56,974 nucleotides of DNA, from the IMG/VR virus record IMGVR_UViG_3300044806_000037, positions 1 to 56,974 of that record; one strand, written 5' to 3'. Positions 13,809 through 28,977 of the stretch are shown here, in pieces. The notes under the pieces are model-generated. The model was not told where the DNA came from. It was given only the letters and a program-made list of their open reading frames with translations, and ran no database searches. Made by a program: the position numbers and the translations under genes. Within the stretch, counting starts at the first letter, position 1; the number at the start of each line of letters is the position of its first letter. Source of the stretch: a virus (Duplodnaviria > Caudoviricetes).

Positions 13809-14367
13809 AGTGACAGGTTTTGAACCAATATATAACCCAGTTAAACATGAGTTTATGGAAGAGGAAGATATGACTATAGAAGAACAATTTGCTGAAAAGC
13901 AAGCAGAGGCTCTGCTTAGAGTTGAAGCCCCTAAAAAGAAGAGCGCTAGACTAAACCCTGATGCTGTGCCAGTCCTGGCGACAGCTGTTGGTTTGGTTAG
14001 CATCCTGATGATTTCATCATTTGCAGTATCATTCACAGGCATTTATGAGGTGTCTGCGTGGACTGGGTTGCCAGTCAACTTGCAATGGTTACCGGCTTTG
14101 TTTATTGATGCCGCGATCCTTGCTTACACAATTTCATTGATCGTATTCAAGGCTCGTGGAGAGTCGGTTTGGAGGACTCTTGCGGGATTATCTGGTTTTG
14201 CTTTGGTATCAGTTGTTGCGAATATTGCTCATACCTTATCATTTTGGAATGGCAGTCTTGTTGACTTTCGTGCTTGGATTGGGGTTCTTATTACTGCTAG
14301 CGCTCCTATCGCTGTATTACTCGCTTCCGAAGAGATTACGAGATTGGCTTTTGAGGAACAGAAGTAG
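13795..14367 (+). CDS. multi-pass membrane protein, DUF2637-like
   Basis: About four hydrophobic helices; SFAVSF..WLPALFIDAAIL..SVVANIAH..APIAVLLASE. Confidence 0.7.
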   Translation: MLRNEVTGFEPIYNPVKHEFMEEEDMTIEEQFAEKQAEALLRVEAPKKKSARLNPDAVPVLATAVGLVSILMISSFAVSFTGIYEVSAWTGLPVNLQWLPALFIDAAILAYTISLIVFKARGESVWRTLAGLSGFALVSVVANIAHTLSFWNGSLVDFRAWIGVLITASAPIAVLLASEEITRLAFEEQK

Positions 14368-14702
14368 TGTCGAAGAGGCGAAAGCTTAACGATAGTCTCT
14401 ACCCAGACCTCGGGGTAAAACCTGAGGCGGTAGAGCCTCTAAATAAGTTTCTTGACAAGATGCTTGAATTAGAGGATAATGGACAAGTAAGGAAGTGCGG
14501 CGACGATTTCTGGTCATACACAGAGCAAGAAAATCTTACAGCGGATGATGCTGAAGAACTATGTTATGGCTGTCCGTTGCTAAAACTTTGTTACGATTAC
14601 GCAGTCGCTGACGAAATTAGTTGGGGAGTGTGGGGCGGAATTGACTTTTCGCCAGAAGATGATACACTATTTACATTAGGAGAAGAGGAGGACTACAAAT
14701 GA
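14367..14702 (+). CDS. whiB: WhiB-family Fe-S transcription factor
   Basis: C...AEELCYGCPLLKLC...WGVWGG. Confidence 0.88.
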   Translation: MSKRRKLNDSLYPDLGVKPEAVEPLNKFLDKMLELEDNGQVRKCGDDFWSYTEQENLTADDAEELCYGCPLLKLCYDYAVADEISWGVWGGIDFSPEDDTLFTLGEEEDYK

Positions 14703-15674: not shown

Positions 15675-15729
15675 ATGTCACAGGTATGTGATAAGCTTTC
15701 AAAACAAGGAAAATAAGGAGGAAGATAGA

Positions 15730-16455
15730 ATGACTGAATTCCCAGCACTGCCGTTTCAATCGGCAATCAAAAAAGCTGAGGCTCTCAACACACCAAAAAC
15801 TATTTTGGTTTACGGAGACCCTAAGCGAGGCAAGTCTTGGTTCGCCGCATCCGCGGCTGAAGTCGAGGCACTATCACCAGTATTGGTGATTGACACTGAG
15901 GGTGGTTCATCCGCTATTGCCCGAGACTGGAAAGATGTGGATGTTGTTGAAGTTGACAGCCACGAAAAGTTTCAGGCAACCATCTCTGCATTAGTTTCAC
16001 AGCCACACAAATACAAGACAGTTATTGTCGACACACTTGGCGTGGCTATGGATCGTGCTGAGAAGTTCTTTGGCGAAAAGCCGGAGAACAAGAACAACAA
16101 GTTTGGCCGTTGGGGCGACCTGAAGAACTGGACGAATGATTTCATTCGTGCATTCCATGGCGCACCGTTCCTGTCGATCATTGTCACCCATGCACAGGAT
16201 GACAAGGACGAGAACACTGGAGCTGTCAAAACTATTCCAATGCTACCTGGTTCATCTAAGGGGACTCTCCCAGCGATTCCAGACATTATTGGATACATGA
16301 CGAGCGAAAAGACTGAGGATGGCATGCAGCGTGTGTTATACTTGCAGTCTTCCGATCGATTCGTCACCGGAAACCGCTTTGGTCTTGGTCCAAAGCTTTA
16401 TGCACCAAGCATCAAGAAAATCATTGATGCAATCAACACCGTAGGAGGTAAATAA
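15730..16455 (+). CDS. AAA_24 / Sak4-like ATPase (recombination)
   Basis: YGDPKRGKS Walker A, IDTEGG, VIVDTL, IVTHAQ; lies between the exonuclease and SSB genes. Confidence 0.85.
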   Translation: MTEFPALPFQSAIKKAEALNTPKTILVYGDPKRGKSWFAASAAEVEALSPVLVIDTEGGSSAIARDWKDVDVVEVDSHEKFQATISALVSQPHKYKTVIVDTLGVAMDRAEKFFGEKPENKNNKFGRWGDLKNWTNDFIRAFHGAPFLSIIVTHAQDDKDENTGAVKTIPMLPGSSKGTLPAIPDIIGYMTSEKTEDGMQRVLYLQSSDRFVTGNRFGLGPKLYAPSIKKIIDAINTVGGK

Positions 16456-16940
16456 TGACAAGCATTAACATTAACATTTCAAACGACGATCTAGCGTCGA
16501 CCAGCTCTGGTTCATATGACCCGATTCCAAAGGGAACTTATGCAACCACCATCTTCACCGCGGAACTTGTTCCTGTGAAGAACGGCGAGAACGCCGGCAA
16601 GCCTCAGCTGAAGATTCAGTTGCGTGTATCTGAGGGTCAGTTCGAGAACCGCCGTCTGTTCACTTTCGTTCCGCTTTACACTGGTAAGGCTTTCTGGAAG
16701 ACTAAGGCTTTCTTTGAGGCTCTTGGTTATGACATGGAGGCTGGCACTTTCCAGGTTCCTGATGTTACTGAACTTCTCGGTAAGGCACTAGGCGCTAAGG
16801 TTGCGGTTGTAGCTAACAGCGTTTCTGGTGAAGACGAGAACAATGTCGGTGGTTTCACTGGCGCTGCATCAAGCACTGACGAGTTGCTAAAGGGCATGGG
16901 CGCAATCCCAACTGGCTCTGTCGGCAGTCCCTGGGCTTAA
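16455..16940 (+). CDS. DUF669-family phage ssDNA-binding protein
   Basis: YDPIPKGTY..KNGENAGKPQLKIQLRV..RRLF; C-terminal SPWA; context next to the Sak4-like gene. Confidence 0.75.
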   Translation: MTSININISNDDLASTSSGSYDPIPKGTYATTIFTAELVPVKNGENAGKPQLKIQLRVSEGQFENRRLFTFVPLYTGKAFWKTKAFFEALGYDMEAGTFQVPDVTELLGKALGAKVAVVANSVSGEDENNVGGFTGAASSTDELLKGMGAIPTGSVGSPWA

Positions 16941-16976
16941 TGGGCAACCCTGAGCATGGTTTAAAACTGCTCACAC

Positions 16977-17046
16977 GCCCCCACTGGTGGAATTCAGGCT
17001 CTTCTCCTTGGCCTGTATAGTTCGAGTTCGATTCTCGACCGGGGCA
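16977..17046 (+). ncRNA. degenerate tRNA-like element (possibly derived from tRNA-Glu CTC)
   Basis: GCCCC/GGGGC+A acceptor end, perfect T arm TCGAG-TTCGATT-CTCGA, CAGGC/GCCTG arm with an oversized TCTTCTCCTTG loop; D arm and inner acceptor pairs are defective. Confidence 0.6.
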
Positions 17047-17226
17047 CGTAAGACGAGGGTCTGAATAACTCTCGTGACTGCTACTACCTCCGAAGCCTTC
17101 ACTGGCGGCATCGATAGTAACTGAGTTGGGTAAGCGTTCAGGCTGAGACCATGTAGGTGACCGTCTAGGAGGATAGAGTCGTTGGGAATCTCTTGGGAGA
17201 CGAACCATGTTCCACGAACGACAACT

Positions 17227-17299
17227 GCCACCTTAGCTCCAATGGTAGAGCGCCGCCTTTGTAACGCGGATGTTATCAGTTCGAGTCTGATAGGTGGCT
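17227..17299 (+). tRNA. tRNA-Thr(TGT)
   Basis: GCCACCT/AGGTGGC acceptor, GCTC/GAGC D arm, TTTGTAA anticodon loop (one C-C mismatch in the stem), ATCAG-TTCGAGT-CTGAT T arm; CCA not encoded. Confidence 0.9.
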
Positions 17300-17397
17300 C
17301 AGGGCTCAGTTGAGCATAGAGTATATCGATCACTCTCTATGCGCAGGCTGGTGAGGTAATTACTCTGACGTGCTGGGCGTTGCCACTCTCCCAGTAA

Positions 17398-17475
17398 GGG
17401 TCTGGATGGTTTCGACTGTGCTTAAAGCCGTATACGGAAGTGCACAGGACCTGGGTTCGATTCCCAGCAGATCCA
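17398..17475 (+). ncRNA. minimal tmRNA-like tRNA domain (TLD only, no mRNA-like domain)
   Basis: GGGTCTG/CAGATCC acceptor with G3.U70 and discriminator A; stemless D-loop GATGGTTTCGAC; TGTGC/GCACA stem; GGAC connector; CTGGG-TTCGATT-CCCAG T arm. Confidence 0.8.
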
Positions 17476-17596
17476 CTATGCACCCATAGGGGTGCAGAAG
17501 CCCACAGTTCGGTGGGTTACTCTAATCGTAAGGTTAGATGTTTATGGTCTAGGGACGCCTAGACAAGGTTTGGTCTCCTGCGGTGCAAAACGACCA

Positions 17597-17660
17597 GGGT
17601 AGCAGTCAGTCCCTTCTGGGTTATATTGAGAATGCTTCAGGTGCGAGTCCTGACTACCCA
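17597..17660 (+). ncRNA. truncated tRNA-like element (acceptor plus T arm)
   Basis: GGGTAG/CTACCC+A and TCAGG-TGCGAGT-CCTGA; no normal D or anticodon arm. Confidence 0.5.
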
Positions 17661-17760
17661 CGATGTGTGGTGGTTCGCACATTAAGGTAAGATTGATTTC
17701 TTATTTGGTTATTTGTTCATTGGTAACAGGTTGGCCCCCCTGTCTAAAAAGGGGCCACTT

Positions 17761-17833
17761 TGGGACATAGCTCAGATGGCAGAGCGTTCGACTGTTAATC
17801 GAAATGTCGCAGGTTCGATCCCTGCTGTCCCAG
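17761..17833 (+). tRNA. tRNA-Asn(GTT)
   Basis: TGGGACA/TGTCCCA+G, GCTC/GAGC, TTCGA-CTGTTAA-TCGAA, GCAGG-TTCGATC-CCTGC. Confidence 0.95.
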
Positions 17834-17864
17834 CGTTACAAGGAGAAGTATTACAATAGGAGGT

Positions 17865-20072
17865 ATGATGCAAGCAATAGATTTTTTTGAAACAGTCTTA
17901 GGCACTGGCGCAGGGTATGCGACAATCGTAACTAAGGATGGTAGTGGCAACCCTACAGTCCAAAAGTTTTTCAGCTACCCTGACGAGATCGATGCCATGG
18001 CTGCTTACGCAAAACAGTTTGAGAACGAGGACGTTTACTTCTCGCCAATCCTGTTTTATGAAACTCGCCGTATCCGCGAGAACGCTAAGAGCGTGTCCGC
18101 TGTGTATTCGGATGCTGACACTTGCGACCCAAAGAACTTCCGTCTACAGCCGTCAATCATTGTCAAGACTTCTGAGGGTCGTTGGCATGCATACTGGATT
18201 CTGGATGCTGAAGCTGACCCGCACCGCGTAGCAATGGCTAGCAAGCAGGTTGCTTACGGACACAAAGACCAAGGCTGTGACCTTTCAGGCTGGAACCCTA
18301 CCAAGCTTCTTCGTGTGCCTAACTCACGCAACACCAAGTATGGTGATGCACAGGTTGTAGAGGCAACTAACACTGGGCTTGTTTATAAGCTTGAAGAAGT
18401 TGAAGCAGCTTATGCTGACGTTAAAGTTGATGCAGTGCTAGAGCCGTCACTCGCGCCAATGCCGGAGATTACCCCAGACGTTATGGGCATTCTTGGCAAG
18501 ATCAAAAGCAATACGGAAGTGTTGTCTTTGTTCATGGACGAGCCTGGCCCGAACGCAGACTACTCTCGCATGCTTTGGAAGCTTGAGCTAGAACTCTTCC
18601 GTCAAGGTTTGACTATTGACGAAGTGTTTGCTGTCGCTAAACACGCTCGTTGTAACAAGTATCGTAGACCAGACCGCCCAAAGCGTTCTGACCCGGACGG
18701 CGACCTGTGGCGTGAGATTCAGCGCGCCCAGCAAACTTTCCAAGTGCCTGCCGAGGTTGAGAGTGTAGAACCAATCTACATTGATGATGTTCCTGTTGAG
18801 AAACCAATCAGTCTGCTCACTGATGAAGAGCGCGCTATTGTGTCGAACACAGAAACCTTTATCGACAGGTATGTGAACTGGGCTCGCAAGAAGACTGATG
18901 GTGCTGTCGAATACCAGATTGCTAGTGCGTTTACTTTACTTTCAACCTGTTTCTCGGACATTGGTTACGCTACGCCAAAGTATGGCAAGCTTGGTCTGAA
19001 CCTTTGGTTCATGCTGTTGGGTGAAACTACTCTGTCGCGTAAGTCAACTTCGCGCCAGCTAATGCTACGCACACTCCGTTCGTTTGAAAAGTTTGCTGGC
19101 TACCAGATCGATATCGGCTCTAACGTCACTGCTGAAGGTTTAGTAAAGCACTTGGCAGGTCGCGACAAGCTGACCTCGCTGTTCCACCGCGATGAAGTCC
19201 AGGGTATGTTTAAGGAGTTCGTGACCAAAACTTACATGGCCGCGGCTGCAGACCAGTTCACTGAACTTTACGACGGACATGTTCCTGTGGTTATTCGTGC
19301 CACTGGTGCGGCTTCTGGTGTCAAGGCTGTCCAGTCGGAACGAGCTGAAACAAACTTCCTAATGTATCTGATGGGTATCACTAGCAAGGTTGCTGAGATT
19401 CTAACTGTGGACTATTTCCGTTCCGGTTTCTTGGCTCGTTTCATTTATGTGATTGCTGATTCACCAGAGCGCACATTCGAGAGTGAAGCCATTGAGCAGT
19501 CTGCTGAAGTAGAAGTGCTTAAGCAGGATGACGAGATGGAAGCCATCGTGCGCACACTGTATGACAGCACTTTGTATTGGCAGAAGAAAGGTGCGCCTTT
19601 CCCACGCCCAGTCCGTATGACTGACGATGCGCTAGCTCGCTTCAACAAGTTCAAGTGGGACATGGGGAACTACTCCCAGGGCCACCCTAACGAAGAATCG
19701 ATTGAGCCATCGCGTCAGCGCCTAGCACTATCGATCTGGAAGTGTGCAGTGCTTATCGCAATGTATGACAAGTCTGATGAAGTGGAAGAGAAGCATGTCC
19801 TTGTGGCTGTTCACTATGCAGAGCAGTGGTTTAAGAACCTTGTTCGCATGGCTGACTCAATCTCGGCATCAGAGTGGCAACGTGAAGTTGATGAACTTGA
19901 AGCTCTACTTGTTACTAAGGGTGGACGTATGCGTTATGAAGACGCTTACAAGAAGTTCGGTAACAAGCGTAAGCGTGAGTTCGACGAAATGGTTGACGCA
20001 CTTAAATCACAGGGCCGCATGGTCGTTAGAACAGAGAACATGAGAAACTTTTTGGAGGTTACATCACGATGA
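17865..20072 (+). CDS. RepB-like (AEP) DNA primase fused to a DUF3987-like helicase domain
   Basis: YSDAD, KTSEGRWHAYW and LLRVPNSRNTK in the N-terminus; GETTLSRKST, TAEGL, RDEVQG and SGFLARF in the C-terminus. Confidence 0.8.
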   Translation: MMQAIDFFETVLGTGAGYATIVTKDGSGNPTVQKFFSYPDEIDAMAAYAKQFENEDVYFSPILFYETRRIRENAKSVSAVYSDADTCDPKNFRLQPSIIVKTSEGRWHAYWILDAEADPHRVAMASKQVAYGHKDQGCDLSGWNPTKLLRVPNSRNTKYGDAQVVEATNTGLVYKLEEVEAAYADVKVDAVLEPSLAPMPEITPDVMGILGKIKSNTEVLSLFMDEPGPNADYSRMLWKLELELFRQGLTIDEVFAVAKHARCNKYRRPDRPKRSDPDGDLWREIQRAQQTFQVPAEVESVEPIYIDDVPVEKPISLLTDEERAIVSNTETFIDRYVNWARKKTDGAVEYQIASAFTLLSTCFSDIGYATPKYGKLGLNLWFMLLGETTLSRKSTSRQLMLRTLRSFEKFAGYQIDIGSNVTAEGLVKHLAGRDKLTSLFHRDEVQGMFKEFVTKTYMAAAADQFTELYDGHVPVVIRATGAASGVKAVQSERAETNFLMYLMGITSKVAEILTVDYFRSGFLARFIYVIADSPERTFESEAIEQSAEVEVLKQDDEMEAIVRTLYDSTLYWQKKGAPFPRPVRMTDDALARFNKFKWDMGNYSQGHPNEESIEPSRQRLALSIWKCAVLIAMYDKSDEVEEKHVLVAVHYAEQWFKNLVRMADSISASEWQREVDELEALLVTKGGRMRYEDAYKKFGNKRKREFDEMVDALKSQGRMVVRTENMRNFLEVTSR

Positions 20073-20458: not shown

Positions 20459-20700
20459 TGATTAAAATTTATACAAACCCTAACTGTGTCCAGTGCGACA
20501 TGACCAAGAAACAGTTTGACAAGCGCGGTATCGAATACGAGAGCATCGACCTGTCAACTGTGCCAGAACTTCTTGAGCAGTTTAAAGCTGAAGGCTACAT
20601 GGCTGCGCCTGTGGTTGTTACTAACCTTGTAACCTGGGCTGGCTTCAAGCCAGAGCTGATTAGCCAAGTTGCTCACCCAAGTTATAGAAGTAAGCTTTAA
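20458..20700 (+). CDS. nrdH: NrdH-like glutaredoxin
   Basis: IYTNPNCVQC..TKK..GI.Y...APVV...WAGFKP. Confidence 0.92.
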   Translation: MIKIYTNPNCVQCDMTKKQFDKRGIEYESIDLSTVPELLEQFKAEGYMAAPVVVTNLVTWAGFKPELISQVAHPSYRSKL

Positions 20701-21224
20701 TGTCTTTTGATATCAAGCAGGCTACATGCCTGAATGAAGACCCAGACATGTTCTTCTCGGACGATGAAGATGAACCGGACTGGGAGCTAATCAAGAAAGC
20801 CAAAGCCATATGCGCTTTGTGCCCAGTAATTGCAGACTGTTTGCAAATGGCTTACGAAGAAGAGGCTGACGGCATTTGGGGTGGCACAACAACTCGCGAG
20901 CGTAGGATTACTTTGAACAGGGAGATGCGAGGCTACGTGCCAATCCCTAGGACTGTTTCAGAAAATGCTAAGCAAGCTGTTGCGGCTGTTAATAAGGCTA
21001 AAACTATTGCAGTCTCAGATCGTGACAGAGAACTATTCCAGCAAGCGCTTGACATGTTTGACGACCTAGACGATTTGACTGAGATGCTGCTACAGTTAAG
21101 GATTAACAATCCTACACATTCGTTAGCAGACTTAGGCCAGGAACTAGACCCACCAATATCAAGAGATGTTGTTGCCGGTCGTTTAAGAAGAGTAAGAGAA
21201 AGGATGGAGAATGGAAAAGGATGA
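20700..21224 (+). CDS. whiB: WhiB domain fused to a WhiA-like C-terminal HTH
   Basis: N-terminus C..DPDMFF..AKAICALCPVIADC..GIWGGTT.RER; C-terminus LRINNPTHSLADLGQELDPPISRDVVAGRLRR. Confidence 0.82.
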   Translation: MSFDIKQATCLNEDPDMFFSDDEDEPDWELIKKAKAICALCPVIADCLQMAYEEEADGIWGGTTTRERRITLNREMRGYVPIPRTVSENAKQAVAAVNKAKTIAVSDRDRELFQQALDMFDDLDDLTEMLLQLRINNPTHSLADLGQELDPPISRDVVAGRLRRVRERMENGKG

Positions 21225-27323: not shown

Positions 27324-28977
27324 ATTTATACAGCGTATCTCCAAGTGGGTTGATAGTCATTTCATTAAATGTCATATCAGTATAGTATTGTTCAAGTTCT
27401 TCAAAAGTTCTAGCGGGATAGTCGTCGTTGAACTGGCTGAAAACTTGCCCACTATATTGCGTATTAAAAGTTGTAAAAGTATCTGTTGGCTCAAATCCAG
27501 ATGTTTCAGTAAATGTATTAAAGCTTACAGAATATATACTAATTATATCATCGAAACGTGTGTCAACCCTTGCATTTATTGACACAGAGCCACCATTAAT
27601 CGTTGCGGTCTTAACCCTATAATAGCCGTTGTCATAAAAGAATCGTGCACCAGGAAGGTCGGTAAACTCATTCGCTAACTGAGTGAAAGGTAACGTTAGG
27701 CTCAAATCAACTGTTGGTCCGGTAGCGTAAGCCGCGGCTTGAAGTAAATGAAAACTCGCGTCGCTGATGAATGGGTTATCGATTGTTGCTTTGCTATCTT
27801 TTGCAATGAAAGTTCTGTCAGCACCTGTGTCAACTTTTCGGAAAGTCTTAGTAACTTTAACACCCTCACCGCAAATATAAAGCGCTGGGCGAGGTTCAGT
27901 GTCATATTCAGCAATACGGAAAGGTTCAGTGTAAGCAGAGTTCTTTTGGTTAGGCGCTTGAATTATAAGTTCCAACTGCATAGGGTTATCTTCAGAAACT
28001 TTTACAGTAATCTTACCGCCGTTATTATTCCACCAATCTGGTGATACCGGAATGTTAAGATTATCAATAACAACGTAAGGAGACTTTCCGATACCGCCCT
28101 CGAAAGGGATTGGTTGAATTGCTTGAACGCACACTGGTTTAATGATCTTGTCGGTCGTGGTGGAGTTTTTGATATCGACAAGTTCTTTAATTCTTTCACC
28201 CATGTTAACCTGATAGCTTGTGTTAGCTGCAAAGATAACTGTGTCATCCTCCCAGGAGCAGTCGTAGTCATAAAGTTCTACTGTGCGCGAAGTTCCCAAT
28301 GCTGTAACTGTTCGCGAAATGCCAGAAGCTTCATCAACAAAGATTTCAGTCATGCCGATAGGTTTTAGTATTACGTTACCTTCGGGCCCTACGAGAATGT
28401 CAGCTTTGTTTGCGACACAAAACATTTTCATATATTCCCAAAGGTTGCCTTTCCAGCCGGGGTATGCAATAGGTGTGTTAAAGTGGTCGTCTACGTCATC
28501 AGGGTTAACTATGATCTCAGCCAAGCTGCAATAATAGATGAAAGCAGTCTTAATGGTTGCCCCATCACCAAAGTGTGGCTGTGCCGCTTTTTCGGCGTTC
28601 ATACGAAAAAGCACACCATCCACAGATATGGAAAGGTTTGAGCCGGACATGTTTATTGAGCTAACGTTGCCATGGTAGGTTCCGCGACCCTTAGTTAAAC
28701 CCTGATAGTCCGAGGGCAACTCTCCGTCAAAAATTCCAAAGTCAGATAAGTAAACTTCACGACCAAGCAGTGCCGTTGAGCGACGGCTTGCTGTAAGGTT
28801 TACGCGGTTGCCGTCTTGGTCATATTTAGTGAAGGTCCCAGGTGCGCTAATGTCAAGTGTGCCAGTAGAACCAGAGGAGTCGGTGGCATCTGTTGGGATT
28901 GATTCAAGATTTAAAGTGTAATTCTGAATGTCACCAATCTCAGCCTTACCAGACTTAGCGACAAGTTTTACAGCCAT
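27313..28977 (-). CDS. minor tail (hub/Tal-like) protein
   Basis: Second gene after the tape measure gene; 554 aa. Confidence 0.6.
   Translation of the reverse strand: MAVKLVAKSGKAEIGDIQNYTLNLESIPTDATDSSGSTGTLDISAPGTFTKYDQDGNRVNLTASRRSTALLGREVYLSDFGIFDGELPSDYQGLTKGRGTYHGNVSSINMSGSNLSISVDGVLFRMNAEKAAQPHFGDGATIKTAFIYYCSLAEIIVNPDDVDDHFNTPIAYPGWKGNLWEYMKMFCVANKADILVGPEGNVILKPIGMTEIFVDEASGISRTVTALGTSRTVELYDYDCSWEDDTVIFAANTSYQVNMGERIKELVDIKNSTTTDKIIKPVCVQAIQPIPFEGGIGKSPYVVIDNLNIPVSPDWWNNNGGKITVKVSEDNPMQLELIIQAPNQKNSAYTEPFRIAEYDTEPRPALYICGEGVKVTKTFRKVDTGADRTFIAKDSKATIDNPFISDASFHLLQAAAYATGPTVDLSLTLPFTQLANEFTDLPGARFFYDNGYYRVKTATINGGSVSINARVDTRFDDIISIYSVSFNTFTETSGFEPTDTFTTFNTQYSGQVFSQFNDDYPARTFEELEQYYTDMTFNEMTINPLGDTLYKYGN

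What the first reader, a model, noticed from the sequence alone, without database searches (positions are those of the whole stretch)
17398..17475. 78-nt mini-tmRNA: alanine-identity tRNA-like domain with the tag-coding region deleted
Seen: both tmRNA ends (GGG.CTG..TGGTTTCGAC and GGAC..GGGTTCGATTCCC..CAG.TCCA), G3.U70, A73 and a stemless D-loop. The ~270 nt of pseudoknots and tag ORF are replaced by a short CCG-TATA-CGG hairpin. Established: G3.U70 specifies AlaRS charging, the D-loop/connector binds SmpB, some phages carry full tmRNAs, and TLD-only forms are known from jakobid mitochondria. Inference: either a decoy that sequesters SmpB and blocks tagging and degradation of phage proteins, or a tag-free rescue RNA countering tRNA- or mRNA-cleaving defences. 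I recognised no smpB here, so it would need the host protein.
Basis: partly seen in the sequence, partly recalled or inferred. Interest (0 to 1): 0.9.

Follow-up and report, generated by a model that had tools for sequence, protein, structure and literature searches.

The report
Phage tag-less mini-tmRNA gene
This freshwater phage carries a real 78-base gene for only the alanine-accepting, tRNA-like end of the bacterial ribosome-rescue RNA (tmRNA), a type already reported once, in mycobacteriophage DS6A, and common but unannotated in other phages.

Summary
Window 17398-17475 (+) matches Rfam tmRNA at 61.4 bits (cut-off 47), with 304 model positions replaced by 12 nt. It has a 7-bp acceptor stem with G3.U70, A73, a stemless D-loop, a GAC/GGAC junction, a T-arm and a 30-nt connector holding a CCG-TATA-CGG hairpin.

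It is not a misassembly. Contigs from two other studies carry the short form, one with the 81 nt identical while both spacers differ.

It is a family. About 80-nt homologues lie unannotated in five Streptomyces phages, in at least 119 uncultivated viral contigs and in 11 bacterial contigs. Over 100 copies, 98.2% of cells pair against 69.4% when shuffled, and G3.U70 is kept in 99 of 100.

The kind is in print: mycobacteriophage DS6A "TLD only", with a similar molecule reported to inhibit tmRNA, perhaps by titrating SmpB (PMC4131195 and PMC11915505, passages). DS6A's element scores 60.3 bits with my model.

The window encodes no SmpB, GGQ factor, RtcB or tyrosine integrase.

Verdict: a new member of a known kind, with function inferred. 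This scan has noted the class before on other DNA.

The parts
17398..17475 (+). Mini-tmRNA (TLD-only) gene, from G1 to discriminator A73 (78 nt)
   Evidence: Rfam RF00023 at 61.4 bits, hit 17398-17478. Own model R1 gives 99.9 bits. This sequence is part of R1's seed, so that score is by construction.
17398..17404 (+). Acceptor stem, 5' strand (GGGTCTG); G3 is 17400
   Evidence: Pairs 7 of 7 with 17468-17474. Five of the 7 acceptor pairs show compensatory changes across 100 copies.
17405..17416 (+). Stemless D-loop analogue plus the conserved GAC of the TLD junction
   Evidence: Aligned to the tmRNA consensus ..GGaUUCGAC. G17, A18 and C19 are invariant in the 81-sequence alignment. The collecting patterns required this motif, so that invariance is partly by construction.
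17416..17447 (+). Connector replacing about 300 nt of tmRNA: 6-bp P2-like stem (17416-17421 with 17442-17447), A-rich 5' bulge (17422-17427), hairpin CCG-TATA-CGG (17428-17437), 3' bulge (17438-17441)
   Evidence: Centroid fold. In the P2-like stem, 5 of 6 pairs have compensatory changes and 96.1% of cells pair. In the inner hairpin, 3 of 3 pairs have compensatory changes and 96.4% pair.
17448..17467 (+). GAC of the GGAC junction, then the T-arm (CTGGG-TTCGATT-CCCAG)
   Evidence: alignment. T-arm: 4 of 5 pairs have compensatory changes and 99.6% of cells pair.
17468..17476 (+). Acceptor 3' strand (CAGATCC; U70 is 17472), A73 (17475) and C74 (17476); no CCA encoded
   Evidence: In the wider set, A73 is present in 129 of 129 and C74 in 127 of 129.
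17227..17300 (+). tRNA-Thr(TGT), upstream neighbour in the same ORF-free RNA island
   Evidence: ARAGORN; Rfam tRNA 56.1 bits.
17761..17834 (+). tRNA-Asn(GTT), downstream neighbour in the same island
   Evidence: ARAGORN; Rfam tRNA 70.2 bits.

Best explanation
Window 17398-17475 is a functional phage gene for a tag-less mini-tmRNA. It keeps the tRNA-like domain of tmRNA (acceptor stem, D-loop analogue, G.A junction, T-arm), closed by a short stem, an A-rich bulge and a small hairpin, in place of the pseudoknots and tag reading frame. It belongs to the family whose published member is the 'TLD only' tmRNA of mycobacteriophage DS6A.

Proposed mechanism, all of it inferred. The RNA is transcribed with the neighbouring tRNAs from the replication-module strand. 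It is matured like a tRNA (5' end by RNase P, 3' trimming, CCA added by the host enzyme). It is charged by host AlaRS through G3.U70 and A73, and bound by host SmpB at the D-loop/junction surface. By competing with host tmRNA for SmpB, and probably for stalled ribosomes, it suppresses ssrA tagging during infection.

Shown here: the sequence anatomy, homology, selection on the structure and on the identity elements, independence from assembly, and the absence of phage-encoded partner proteins. Not shown here: expression, alanylation, SmpB binding, or any effect on trans-translation.
For: (1) Rfam tmRNA gives 61.4 bits against a cut-off of 47, E = 1.3e-21, end to end on the model with the centre skipped.
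(2) Homologues of about 80 nt occur in five Streptomyces phages; four of the five loci exceed the Rfam cut-off at 57.1-64.5 bits. A scan that left the centre free hit at least 119 viral contigs, giving 129 elements that pass the stem checks and 83 unique sequences.
(3) Model R1 found 100 copies at 44-104 bits in 99 sources. On them, 98.2% of cells pair against 69.4% when shuffled (0 of 500 shuffles reach it) and 40-51% when partners are slid. 17 of 21 pairs have compensatory changes.
(4) Identity elements are constrained while their neighbours vary. G3.U70 is kept in 99 of 100, whereas pairs 4-6 each change on both sides in 33-37 of 100. A73 is present in 129 of 129.
(5) A 13-kb contig from a different study holds the 81 nt with 0 differences while both flanking spacers are replaced. 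A contig from another study spans 17193-17548 with the short form.
(6) DS6A's element (43.2 bits with Rfam) scores 60.3 bits with R1 and has the same CCG-CACG-CGG hairpin.
[quoted passage not shown] (8) There is no SmpB in the window or in 5 of 5 other large virus records with a mini-tmRNA, so any SmpB must come from the host.
(9) Four of 4 bacterial genomes that hold a mini form also keep a full tmRNA of 367-389 nt. Their acceptor stems differ from the mini's, so the mini is an accessory gene and not a decayed ssrA.
Against: There is no expression evidence. No RNA run holds the stretch, which is not evidence either way. The consensus scan found no promoter or terminator in 16400-18200.

If titrating SmpB were the whole function, the cited report that inhibition did not need alanylation would leave the near-invariant G3.U70 and A73 unexplained. 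That favours some ribosome-level or charging-dependent step and keeps the 'tag-free rescue' rival alive.

The conserved A-rich bulge and inner hairpin have no assigned role in an SmpB-decoy model.

The primary experimental paper (Mao et al. 2009) could not be read. The cited experiment was done in E. coli, and according to PMC4131195 with 'a similar molecule'.

Limits of my sets: the pattern scans required GGTTTCGAC, GGAC and T-loop letters, so conservation of those within the sets is partly by construction. The alignment used for pair counts was fitted to the model, and the 100 sequences are related to one another.
Confidence: 0.55

Rival explanations
1. Tag-free ribosome rescue. Ala-mini-tmRNA with host SmpB and EF-Tu enters stalled ribosomes and accepts the nascent chain. 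The chain is then released by a host factor (an ArfB or Pth type) without a degradation tag. This would free ribosomes and spare truncated phage proteins when phage mRNAs or tRNAs are cut by host defences.
For: G3.U70 in 99 of 100 and A73 in 129 of 129 are under strong constraint even though neighbouring acceptor pairs vary freely. That is expected if charging matters. TLD-only tmRNAs in jakobid mitochondria and two plastids co-occur with SmpB and are thought to help with incomplete mRNAs (PMC11915505 passage). The element sits among phage tRNAs in the window; in 25 of the 30 family loci that hold any tRNA, the nearest lies within 300 nt.
Against: The window has no release-type partner: no RF-1/GGQ domain and no RtcB. 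The only published test, as cited, reports inhibition of tmRNA rather than rescue. 111 of 141 family loci have no tRNA in the stretch fetched.
Confidence: 0.25
2. A decoy or tRNA-like element with a function unrelated to trans-translation. Examples: bait for a host nuclease or defence sensor that recognises tRNA or tmRNA shapes, or an RNase P/Z processing mark that punctuates the transcript of the RNA island.
For: The conserved A-rich bulge and inner hairpin (62 of 83 unique centres have a purine run followed by CC; 70 of 83 have an inner hairpin) suggest a second binding surface that SmpB models do not explain. SmpB-like domains occur in predicted RNA-targeting restriction systems (PMC11090510 passage). 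The same island holds other structured, ORF-free blocks.
Against: A processing mark would not need alanine identity elements or the tmRNA-specific D-loop/junction sequence. Most family members are not next to tRNAs. No defence system is known to me that targets this shape; that rests on recall and was not searched.
Confidence: 0.12
3. An artefact or decay product: a misassembly, a recent internal deletion of a full phage or host tmRNA, or an attP-type fragment of ssrA left by integration.
For: tmRNA genes are common integration sites, and integrating phages carry 3' fragments of them (PMC10865867 passage). Two weak partial matches that cover only the 3' half exist in other phages (Jojan60 and GMA2).
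Against: Both TLD halves are present and pair 7 of 7. Independent assemblies carry the same short form. Over 100 divergent copies keep the same length class and covary. Acceptor stems of co-resident minis differ from those of the host tmRNA. The window has no tyrosine integrase.
Confidence: 0.02

Closest known systems
'TLD only' (CDS-less) tmRNA of Mycobacterium phage DS6A (JN698994.1, 28478-28560; tmRNA Website tmID 11587 as given in PMC4131195)
   Same: Phage-borne and about 80 nt, with both TLD halves, G3.U70, A73 and C74 without CCA. The centre has a short stem, an A-rich bulge and a CCG-CACG-CGG-type hairpin. It is hit by the model built from the window and the Streptomyces-phage copies at 60.3 bits. 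It lies next to replication genes and is not called by the record's annotation.
   Different: The sequence is diverged: blastn did not link the two, and DS6A falls below Rfam's tmRNA cut-off at 43.2 bits. The D-loop reads GGTGGTCGAC where the window has GGTTTCGAC, and the junction reads GGCAC where the window has GGAC. DS6A is temperate with a tyrosine integrase, whereas the window has none. The window's copy sits between two tRNA genes.
Standard bacterial tmRNA (ssrA; Rfam RF00023)
   Same: The tRNA-like domain matches in sequence and structure. The alanine identity elements are kept. Like actinobacterial ssrA genes, it encodes C74 but no CCA.
   Different: It lacks the pseudoknots, resume codon and tag reading frame: 304 of 374 model positions are absent. 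It therefore cannot add a tag.
CDS-less tmRNAs of jakobid mitochondria and of two Mallomonadaceae plastids (as described in PMC11915505 and PMC3590771; passage and search listing only)
   Same: The reduction to the TLD is convergent or analogous, and SmpB is supplied in trans.
   Different: Those are organellar replacements for the only tmRNA present. The phage form coexists with an intact host tmRNA. I made no sequence comparison with them.
Full-length phage tmRNAs (mycobacteriophage Bxz1 group, Bacillus phage G; listed in PMC4131195)
   Same: Phage-encoded members of the tmRNA lineage.
   Different: Those keep the tag-coding domain. I did not fetch or compare them.

Membership tests
tmRNA (Rfam RF00023) | Score at or above the curated gathering threshold | tested here: met
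   61.4 bits against 47. The same hit appears in the whole-record search.
tmRNA (Rfam RF00023) | tRNA-like domain: 7-bp acceptor stem with G3.U70, A73, T-arm with a GGUUCGAnUCC-type loop, D-loop without a stem | tested here: met
   Across the family, G3.U70 is kept in 99 of 100.
tmRNA (Rfam RF00023) | mRNA-like domain with resume codon and tag reading frame | tested here: not met
   Only 30 nt lie between GAC and GGAC, and 304 model positions are skipped. ARAGORN finds no tmRNA or tag peptide.
tmRNA (Rfam RF00023) | Pseudoknots PK1-PK4 | tested here: not met
   The connector is a simple stem, bulge and hairpin.
TLD-only (CDS-less) phage tmRNA, DS6A type | Both TLD halves joined by a short connector, in a phage genome | tested here: met
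   The window is a complete virus record with terminal repeats.
TLD-only (CDS-less) phage tmRNA, DS6A type | Homology to the DS6A element | tested here: met
   Model R1, whose seed excludes DS6A, hits DS6A at 60.3 bits. The central hairpin motif is shared.
TLD-only (CDS-less) phage tmRNA, DS6A type | Inhibits host trans-translation (property reported for a similar molecule) | not testable with these tools
   Known only from passages in PMC4131195 and PMC11915505. The primary paper is not held.
TLD-only (CDS-less) phage tmRNA, DS6A type | Binds SmpB; chargeable by AlaRS | not testable with these tools
   Only the sequence determinants are seen. The complex-prediction tool takes no RNA chains.
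Canonical tRNA-Ala | Anticodon arm with a 7-nt loop, and a D-stem | tested here: not met
   The central hairpin has a 4-nt loop and there is no D-stem. ARAGORN makes no tRNA call. In Rfam's clan competition the tmRNA model wins over the tRNA model.
Mitochondrial (jakobid) tmRNA family | Best match to the mitochondrial model rather than the bacterial one | not tested
   cmscan keeps only the best match within a clan, and RF00023 was kept. The lower-scoring families were not shown.

The most novel reading that the evidence does not exclude
The mini-tmRNA is not merely an SmpB sponge. It would be a charging-dependent, ribosome-entering RNA that lets the phage run its own tag-free end to stalled translation, adding a C-terminal Ala but no degron. 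The conserved A-rich bulge and small hairpin would act as a second functional site, either standing in for the missing mRNA-like domain or PK1 on the ribosome, or binding a further host or phage factor. If so, a large family of phage RNAs reprogrammes bacterial ribosome rescue, plausibly to survive mRNA- or tRNA-cleaving defences.
Probability: 0.2. Interest if true: 0.7.

Novelty: new member of a known kind. Interest (0 to 1): 0.35.

Why it matters
On its own this element is one more copy of a known oddity. Its value lies in what the copies show together.

The DS6A-type tag-less tmRNA is a widespread phage RNA gene under purifying selection. ARAGORN-based annotation misses it, or it is overwritten by false CDS calls.

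The strict retention of alanine identity elements argues that charging matters. The published 'SmpB titration' idea does not explain that. A phage-host pair that can be cultured, for example the Streptomyces phages LuckySocke or BRock, would make the role of trans-translation in phage infection directly testable.

Tried and rejected
- PK1-remnant idea. I recalled that an A-run followed by GCCGC lies near pseudoknot 1 of E. coli tmRNA and wondered whether the central hairpin is a remnant. In the four full tmRNAs fetched (Streptomyces, Cellulosimicrobium, Mycobacterium, Christensenella) neither the long nor the short motif regex matched. I dropped the idea and did not examine E. coli ssrA.
- Kink-turn reading of the bulge. 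By eye, the G and A order on both strands is the reverse of the k-turn consensus as I recall it. Not claimed.
- MAFFT alignment A2 mis-registers the 5' acceptor strand where D-loop lengths differ. It was not used for pair counts, apart from its list of invariant columns.
- First extraction script mis-parsed six copies that have an earlier internal GGAC. It was corrected. In one search, ten rows failed my stem checks for the same parsing reason or for real differences. Eight of them (L021, L037, L040, L073, L103, L107, L140, L144) were later recovered by the model at 66.7-99.4 bits. L116 and L145 were not given to the model.
- Expression: no RNA holder was listed for the stretch. X17, labelled RNA-Seq but probably DNA, gave only short partial pieces. 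This says nothing about expression.
- Promoter and terminator consensus scan of 16400-18200: 0 promoter-like and 0 terminator-like sites. Uninformative for an actinophage.
- blastn of 17479-17760 against cultured phages: no match.
- Cyanobium and Synechococcus pattern hits in bacterial genomes score at most 29 bits with R1, or not at all. I did not count them as members and did not follow them up.
- Literature. Searches for 'mini-tmRNA', 'TLD-only', 'tmRNA-like' and 'CDS-less tmRNA', and for DS6A with tmRNA, found no description of the wider phage family in the held library. Subscription papers and supplements were not visible. The tmRNA database supplements of PMC11915505 may list more phage entries than the text names.
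- tRNA adjacency: only 30 of 141 loci had any tRNA in the stretch fetched, so 'always part of a tRNA array' is rejected.

Full report
**What is there.** The window is a complete uncultivated virus record of 56,974 bp with direct terminal repeats and about 47% G+C. An ORF-free island at roughly 17210-17860 holds tRNA-Thr(TGT) at 17227-17300 and tRNA-Asn(GTT) at 17761-17834. The element in question lies between them.

Rfam's tmRNA model matches 17398-17478 on the + strand end to end at 61.4 bits (gathering score 47, E = 1.3e-21). 304 of its 374 positions are replaced by 12 inserted bases. ARAGORN calls neither a tmRNA nor a tRNA there.

Reading the sequence against the Rfam alignment and the centroid fold gives this anatomy:
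- A 7-bp acceptor stem, GGGTCTG with CAGATCC, containing G3.U70.
- Discriminator A73 at 17475, followed by C74 and then TA, so there is no encoded CCA.
- An unpaired D-loop analogue ending in the tmRNA-typical GGTTTCGAC.
- A 6-bp stem, a six-base A-rich bulge (TTAAAG), the hairpin CCG-TATA-CGG and a four-base bulge.
- The tmRNA-typical GGAC, then a 5-bp T-arm with loop TTCGATT.

**Not an assembly artefact or a recent deletion.** I laid contigs of four public runs from studies other than the likely source.
- In X5, one contig spans 17193-17548 with the short form, with 6 other letters and 2 gaps.
- In X10, a wastewater run from another study, a 13-kb contig carries 17397-17477 with 0 differences. 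The spacer to the upstream tRNA is replaced (154 letters in place of 96), and so is the spacer to the downstream tRNA (169 in place of 281).

An 81-nt block kept identical while its flanks turn over is what a selected RNA gene looks like.

**It is a family.**
- blastn with the 81 nt found full-length matches of 76-81% identity in Streptomyces phages LuckySocke, GiJojo, pSt2308 and Alone3, and an 86%-coverage match in BRock (listed under two accessions). In each, the element sits unannotated in a tRNA array. In GiJojo it lies under a 'hypothetical protein' CDS. Rfam calls four of the five loci tmRNA at 57.1-64.5 bits.
- A pattern that required the central hairpin hit 42 IMG/VR contigs, of which 39 are complete elements and 3 are chance matches.
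- That scan is circular with respect to the hairpin, so I repeated it with the centre left free (GGTTTCGAC, 15-45 free bases, GGAC, T-loop letters).
- Of the parsed elements, 129 pass my acceptor (at least 6 of 7) and T-arm (at least 4 of 5) checks. G3.U70 is present in 128 of 129, A73 in 129 of 129 and C74 in 127 of 129. A full CCA is encoded in 25 of 129. Total lengths are mostly 80-83 nt, counting three trailing bases.
- The same free-centre pattern hit 39 bacterial genome contigs. Eleven of them score 44.6-84.2 bits with my model. They include Streptomyces, Mycobacterium, Cellulosimicrobium, Acidimicrobiales and other Actinomycetota, two Christensenella, and Anaerolineae, Saccharibacteria and Sinomicrobium bins.

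**Structure is under selection.** I built covariance model R1 from the window plus the five Streptomyces-phage copies, with the structure given explicitly. It found 100 copies at 44-104 bits in 99 sources.

On that alignment, 98.2% of cells form standard pairs. The figure is 69.4% when 3' partners are shuffled (0 of 500 shuffles reach the observed value) and 40-51% when partners are slid by 1-3 columns. 17 of 21 pairs show changes on both sides.

By helix, the pairs with compensatory changes number 5 of 7 in the acceptor, 5 of 6 in the P2-like stem, 3 of 3 in the inner hairpin and 4 of 5 in the T-arm.

Caveats: the alignment is fitted to the model, the sequences are related to one another, and the collecting patterns fixed some junction and T-loop letters.

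G3.U70 stays fixed in 99 of 100 copies, while pairs 4, 5 and 6 each change on both sides in 33-37 of 100. That is a real constraint on the alanine identity pair.

**The centre.** Counts are on the 83 unique sequences from the free-centre scan.
- 70 have an inner hairpin of at least 3 bp; 13 do not.
- 62 have a purine run followed by CC.
- Only 17 carry the exact AAAGCCG-NNNN-CGGA seen in the window.
- The 5' bulge is 57% A (186 of 326 letters) with a modal length of 4.
- The 3' bulge is usually 0-2 nt.

My parser is crude, so these counts are approximate. A few members have only a plain 15-19-nt hairpin.

**Already in print.** Passages of Hudson, Lau and Williams 2014 (PMC4131195) list 'Mycobacterium phage DS6A (TLD only)'. 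[quoted passage not shown]

Passages of the 2025 tmRNA database paper (PMC11915505) call the DS6A form CDS-less. [quoted passage not shown] That paper is not held.

I located the DS6A element at 28478-28560 (43.2 bits with Rfam, below the cut-off). It has the same layout, including AAAACCG-CACG-CGGT, and scores 60.3 bits with R1, whose seed did not include it. The window's element is therefore a member of the DS6A-type family.

Full-text searches for names of the wider family found nothing beyond these papers. Supplements and subscription journals were not visible to me.

This scan's own notes record the same class on many other genomes, with the same precedent. I reached the precedent and the family independently before reading them.

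**Context and partners.**
- Neighbouring genes on the same strand are an AAA_24 ATPase (15688-16455), a DUF669 protein (16455-16940) and a DUF3987 primase/helicase-type protein (17865-20072). There is also a glutaredoxin and two WhiB-family regulators, at 14367-14702 and 20700-21224, the latter fused to a WhiA-type HTH.
- WhiB together with the freshwater labels of the DNA runs points to a freshwater actinobacterial host. This is an inference.
- The record has no SmpB, no RF-1/GGQ domain, no RtcB and no tyrosine integrase.
- None of five other large virus records with a mini-tmRNA encodes SmpB; four of them are at least 99% complete.
- Four of four bacterial genomes holding a mini form also keep a normal 367-389-nt tmRNA. 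The mini's acceptor stem differs from the host's (Streptomyces GGGGATG against GGGGTAT, for example), so the mini is an accessory gene and not a decayed ssrA.
- The three actinobacterial host tmRNA genes end in A-C without CCA, as the window's element does. The Christensenella host tmRNA and its co-resident mini both encode CCA. The two flanking tRNAs in the window also encode N73-C74 without CCA. This fits maturation by the host's tRNA pathway, which again is an inference.
- Across the family, only 30 of 141 loci have any tRNA in the fetched stretch. Where one exists, it lies within 300 nt in 25 of 30 and is co-oriented in 29 of 30.

**How it most likely works.** The following are shown: a conserved, structurally constrained, phage-borne RNA gene that keeps every sequence feature of the tmRNA TLD and none of its coding part, and whose protein partners are absent from the phage.

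The rest is inferred from established knowledge of tmRNA. G3.U70 and A73 direct AlaRS. SmpB binds the D-loop/junction face of the TLD and stands in for the anticodon arm. I take these from recall and from the introductions of PMC4131195 and PMC11090510. On that basis the RNA is made early with the replication genes, matured like a tRNA, charged with alanine and bound by host SmpB.

The best-supported consequence is interference with host trans-translation through competition for SmpB, and probably for stalled ribosomes. This is the only behaviour reported experimentally, and I know it only at second hand.

The strict retention of the alanine determinants is not explained by pure titration. It keeps a charging-dependent model open, namely tag-free rescue (confidence 0.25). 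The conserved A-rich bulge and hairpin remain unexplained by either model.

I put the identification at about 0.95 and the SmpB-competition mechanism at about 0.55.

**Verdict.** This is a new member of a known kind. Interest is moderate to low for this single locus. The family as a whole, which is large, unannotated and functionally untested in native hosts, deserves an experiment in a cultured Streptomyces phage.

Noticed in passing
window 17479-17566 (+): Directly downstream of the mini-tmRNA, 88 nt fold into four consecutive perfect 7-bp hairpins (-41.2 kcal/mol, z = -6.2, 0 of 200 shuffles as stable). Pieces covering about 17472-17564 or 17473-17602 recur in contigs of three other runs, in some placed in a different order relative to 17100. 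They may be terminators or processing sites without U-tracts, or a mobile RNA module. There is no match in cultured phages.
   Followed up: partly
window 17597-17660 (+): A second tRNA-like shape that no tool calls: a 6-bp acceptor-like stem (GGGTAG with CTACCC) followed by A, a small CCC-TTCT-GGG hairpin and a T-arm-like CAGG-TGCGAGT-CCTG. It has G3-C70, so no alanine identity (z = -0.9 only). Its bounds coincide with a block seen in two other runs (17597-17663 and 17597-17657). A near-identical copy in viral contig L209 turns the seventh acceptor position from C.A into a T-A pair. Two sequences are too few to judge.
   Followed up: partly
window about 17564; run X5 loose end (table 7): In one contig of run X5, the sequence that follows 17564 departs from the window and reads like the 5' half of another tmRNA-type TLD (a G-run, then a GGATTCGAC-type D-loop). 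A relative may therefore carry a second or different TLD-like gene at this spot.
   Followed up: no
L002 1499-1741 (Streptomyces phage GiJojo gene 44): The annotated 'hypothetical protein' CDS starts two bases before the mini-tmRNA (1501-1581; 57.4 bits with Rfam tmRNA) and covers it. It is probably a false gene call.
   Followed up: no
L005 1475-2100, L053 5386-5670, L107 5905-6228: ARAGORN makes long 'tmRNA' or permuted 'tmRNA*' calls of 285-626 nt that share an end with the mini element in these loci. It makes no such call in the other 138 of 141 loci. These are likely mis-calls anchored on the TLD, though a second half-element nearby was not excluded.
   Followed up: no
L164, L174, L178-L180, L182, L185, L189, L191, L193, L197 (Cyanobium/Synechococcus contigs): Eleven picocyanobacterial contigs, including a complete Synechococcus chromosome, match the short-spacing TLD pattern. 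With the mini-tmRNA model they score only 27-29 bits (L180, L185) or nothing. They may be a different short tRNA-like class.
   Followed up: no
window 14367-14702 and 20700-21224 (+): Two WhiB-family regulators; the second is fused to a WhiA-type C-terminal HTH. Together with about 47% G+C and freshwater run labels, this suggests a phage of low-GC freshwater Actinomycetota.
   Followed up: no
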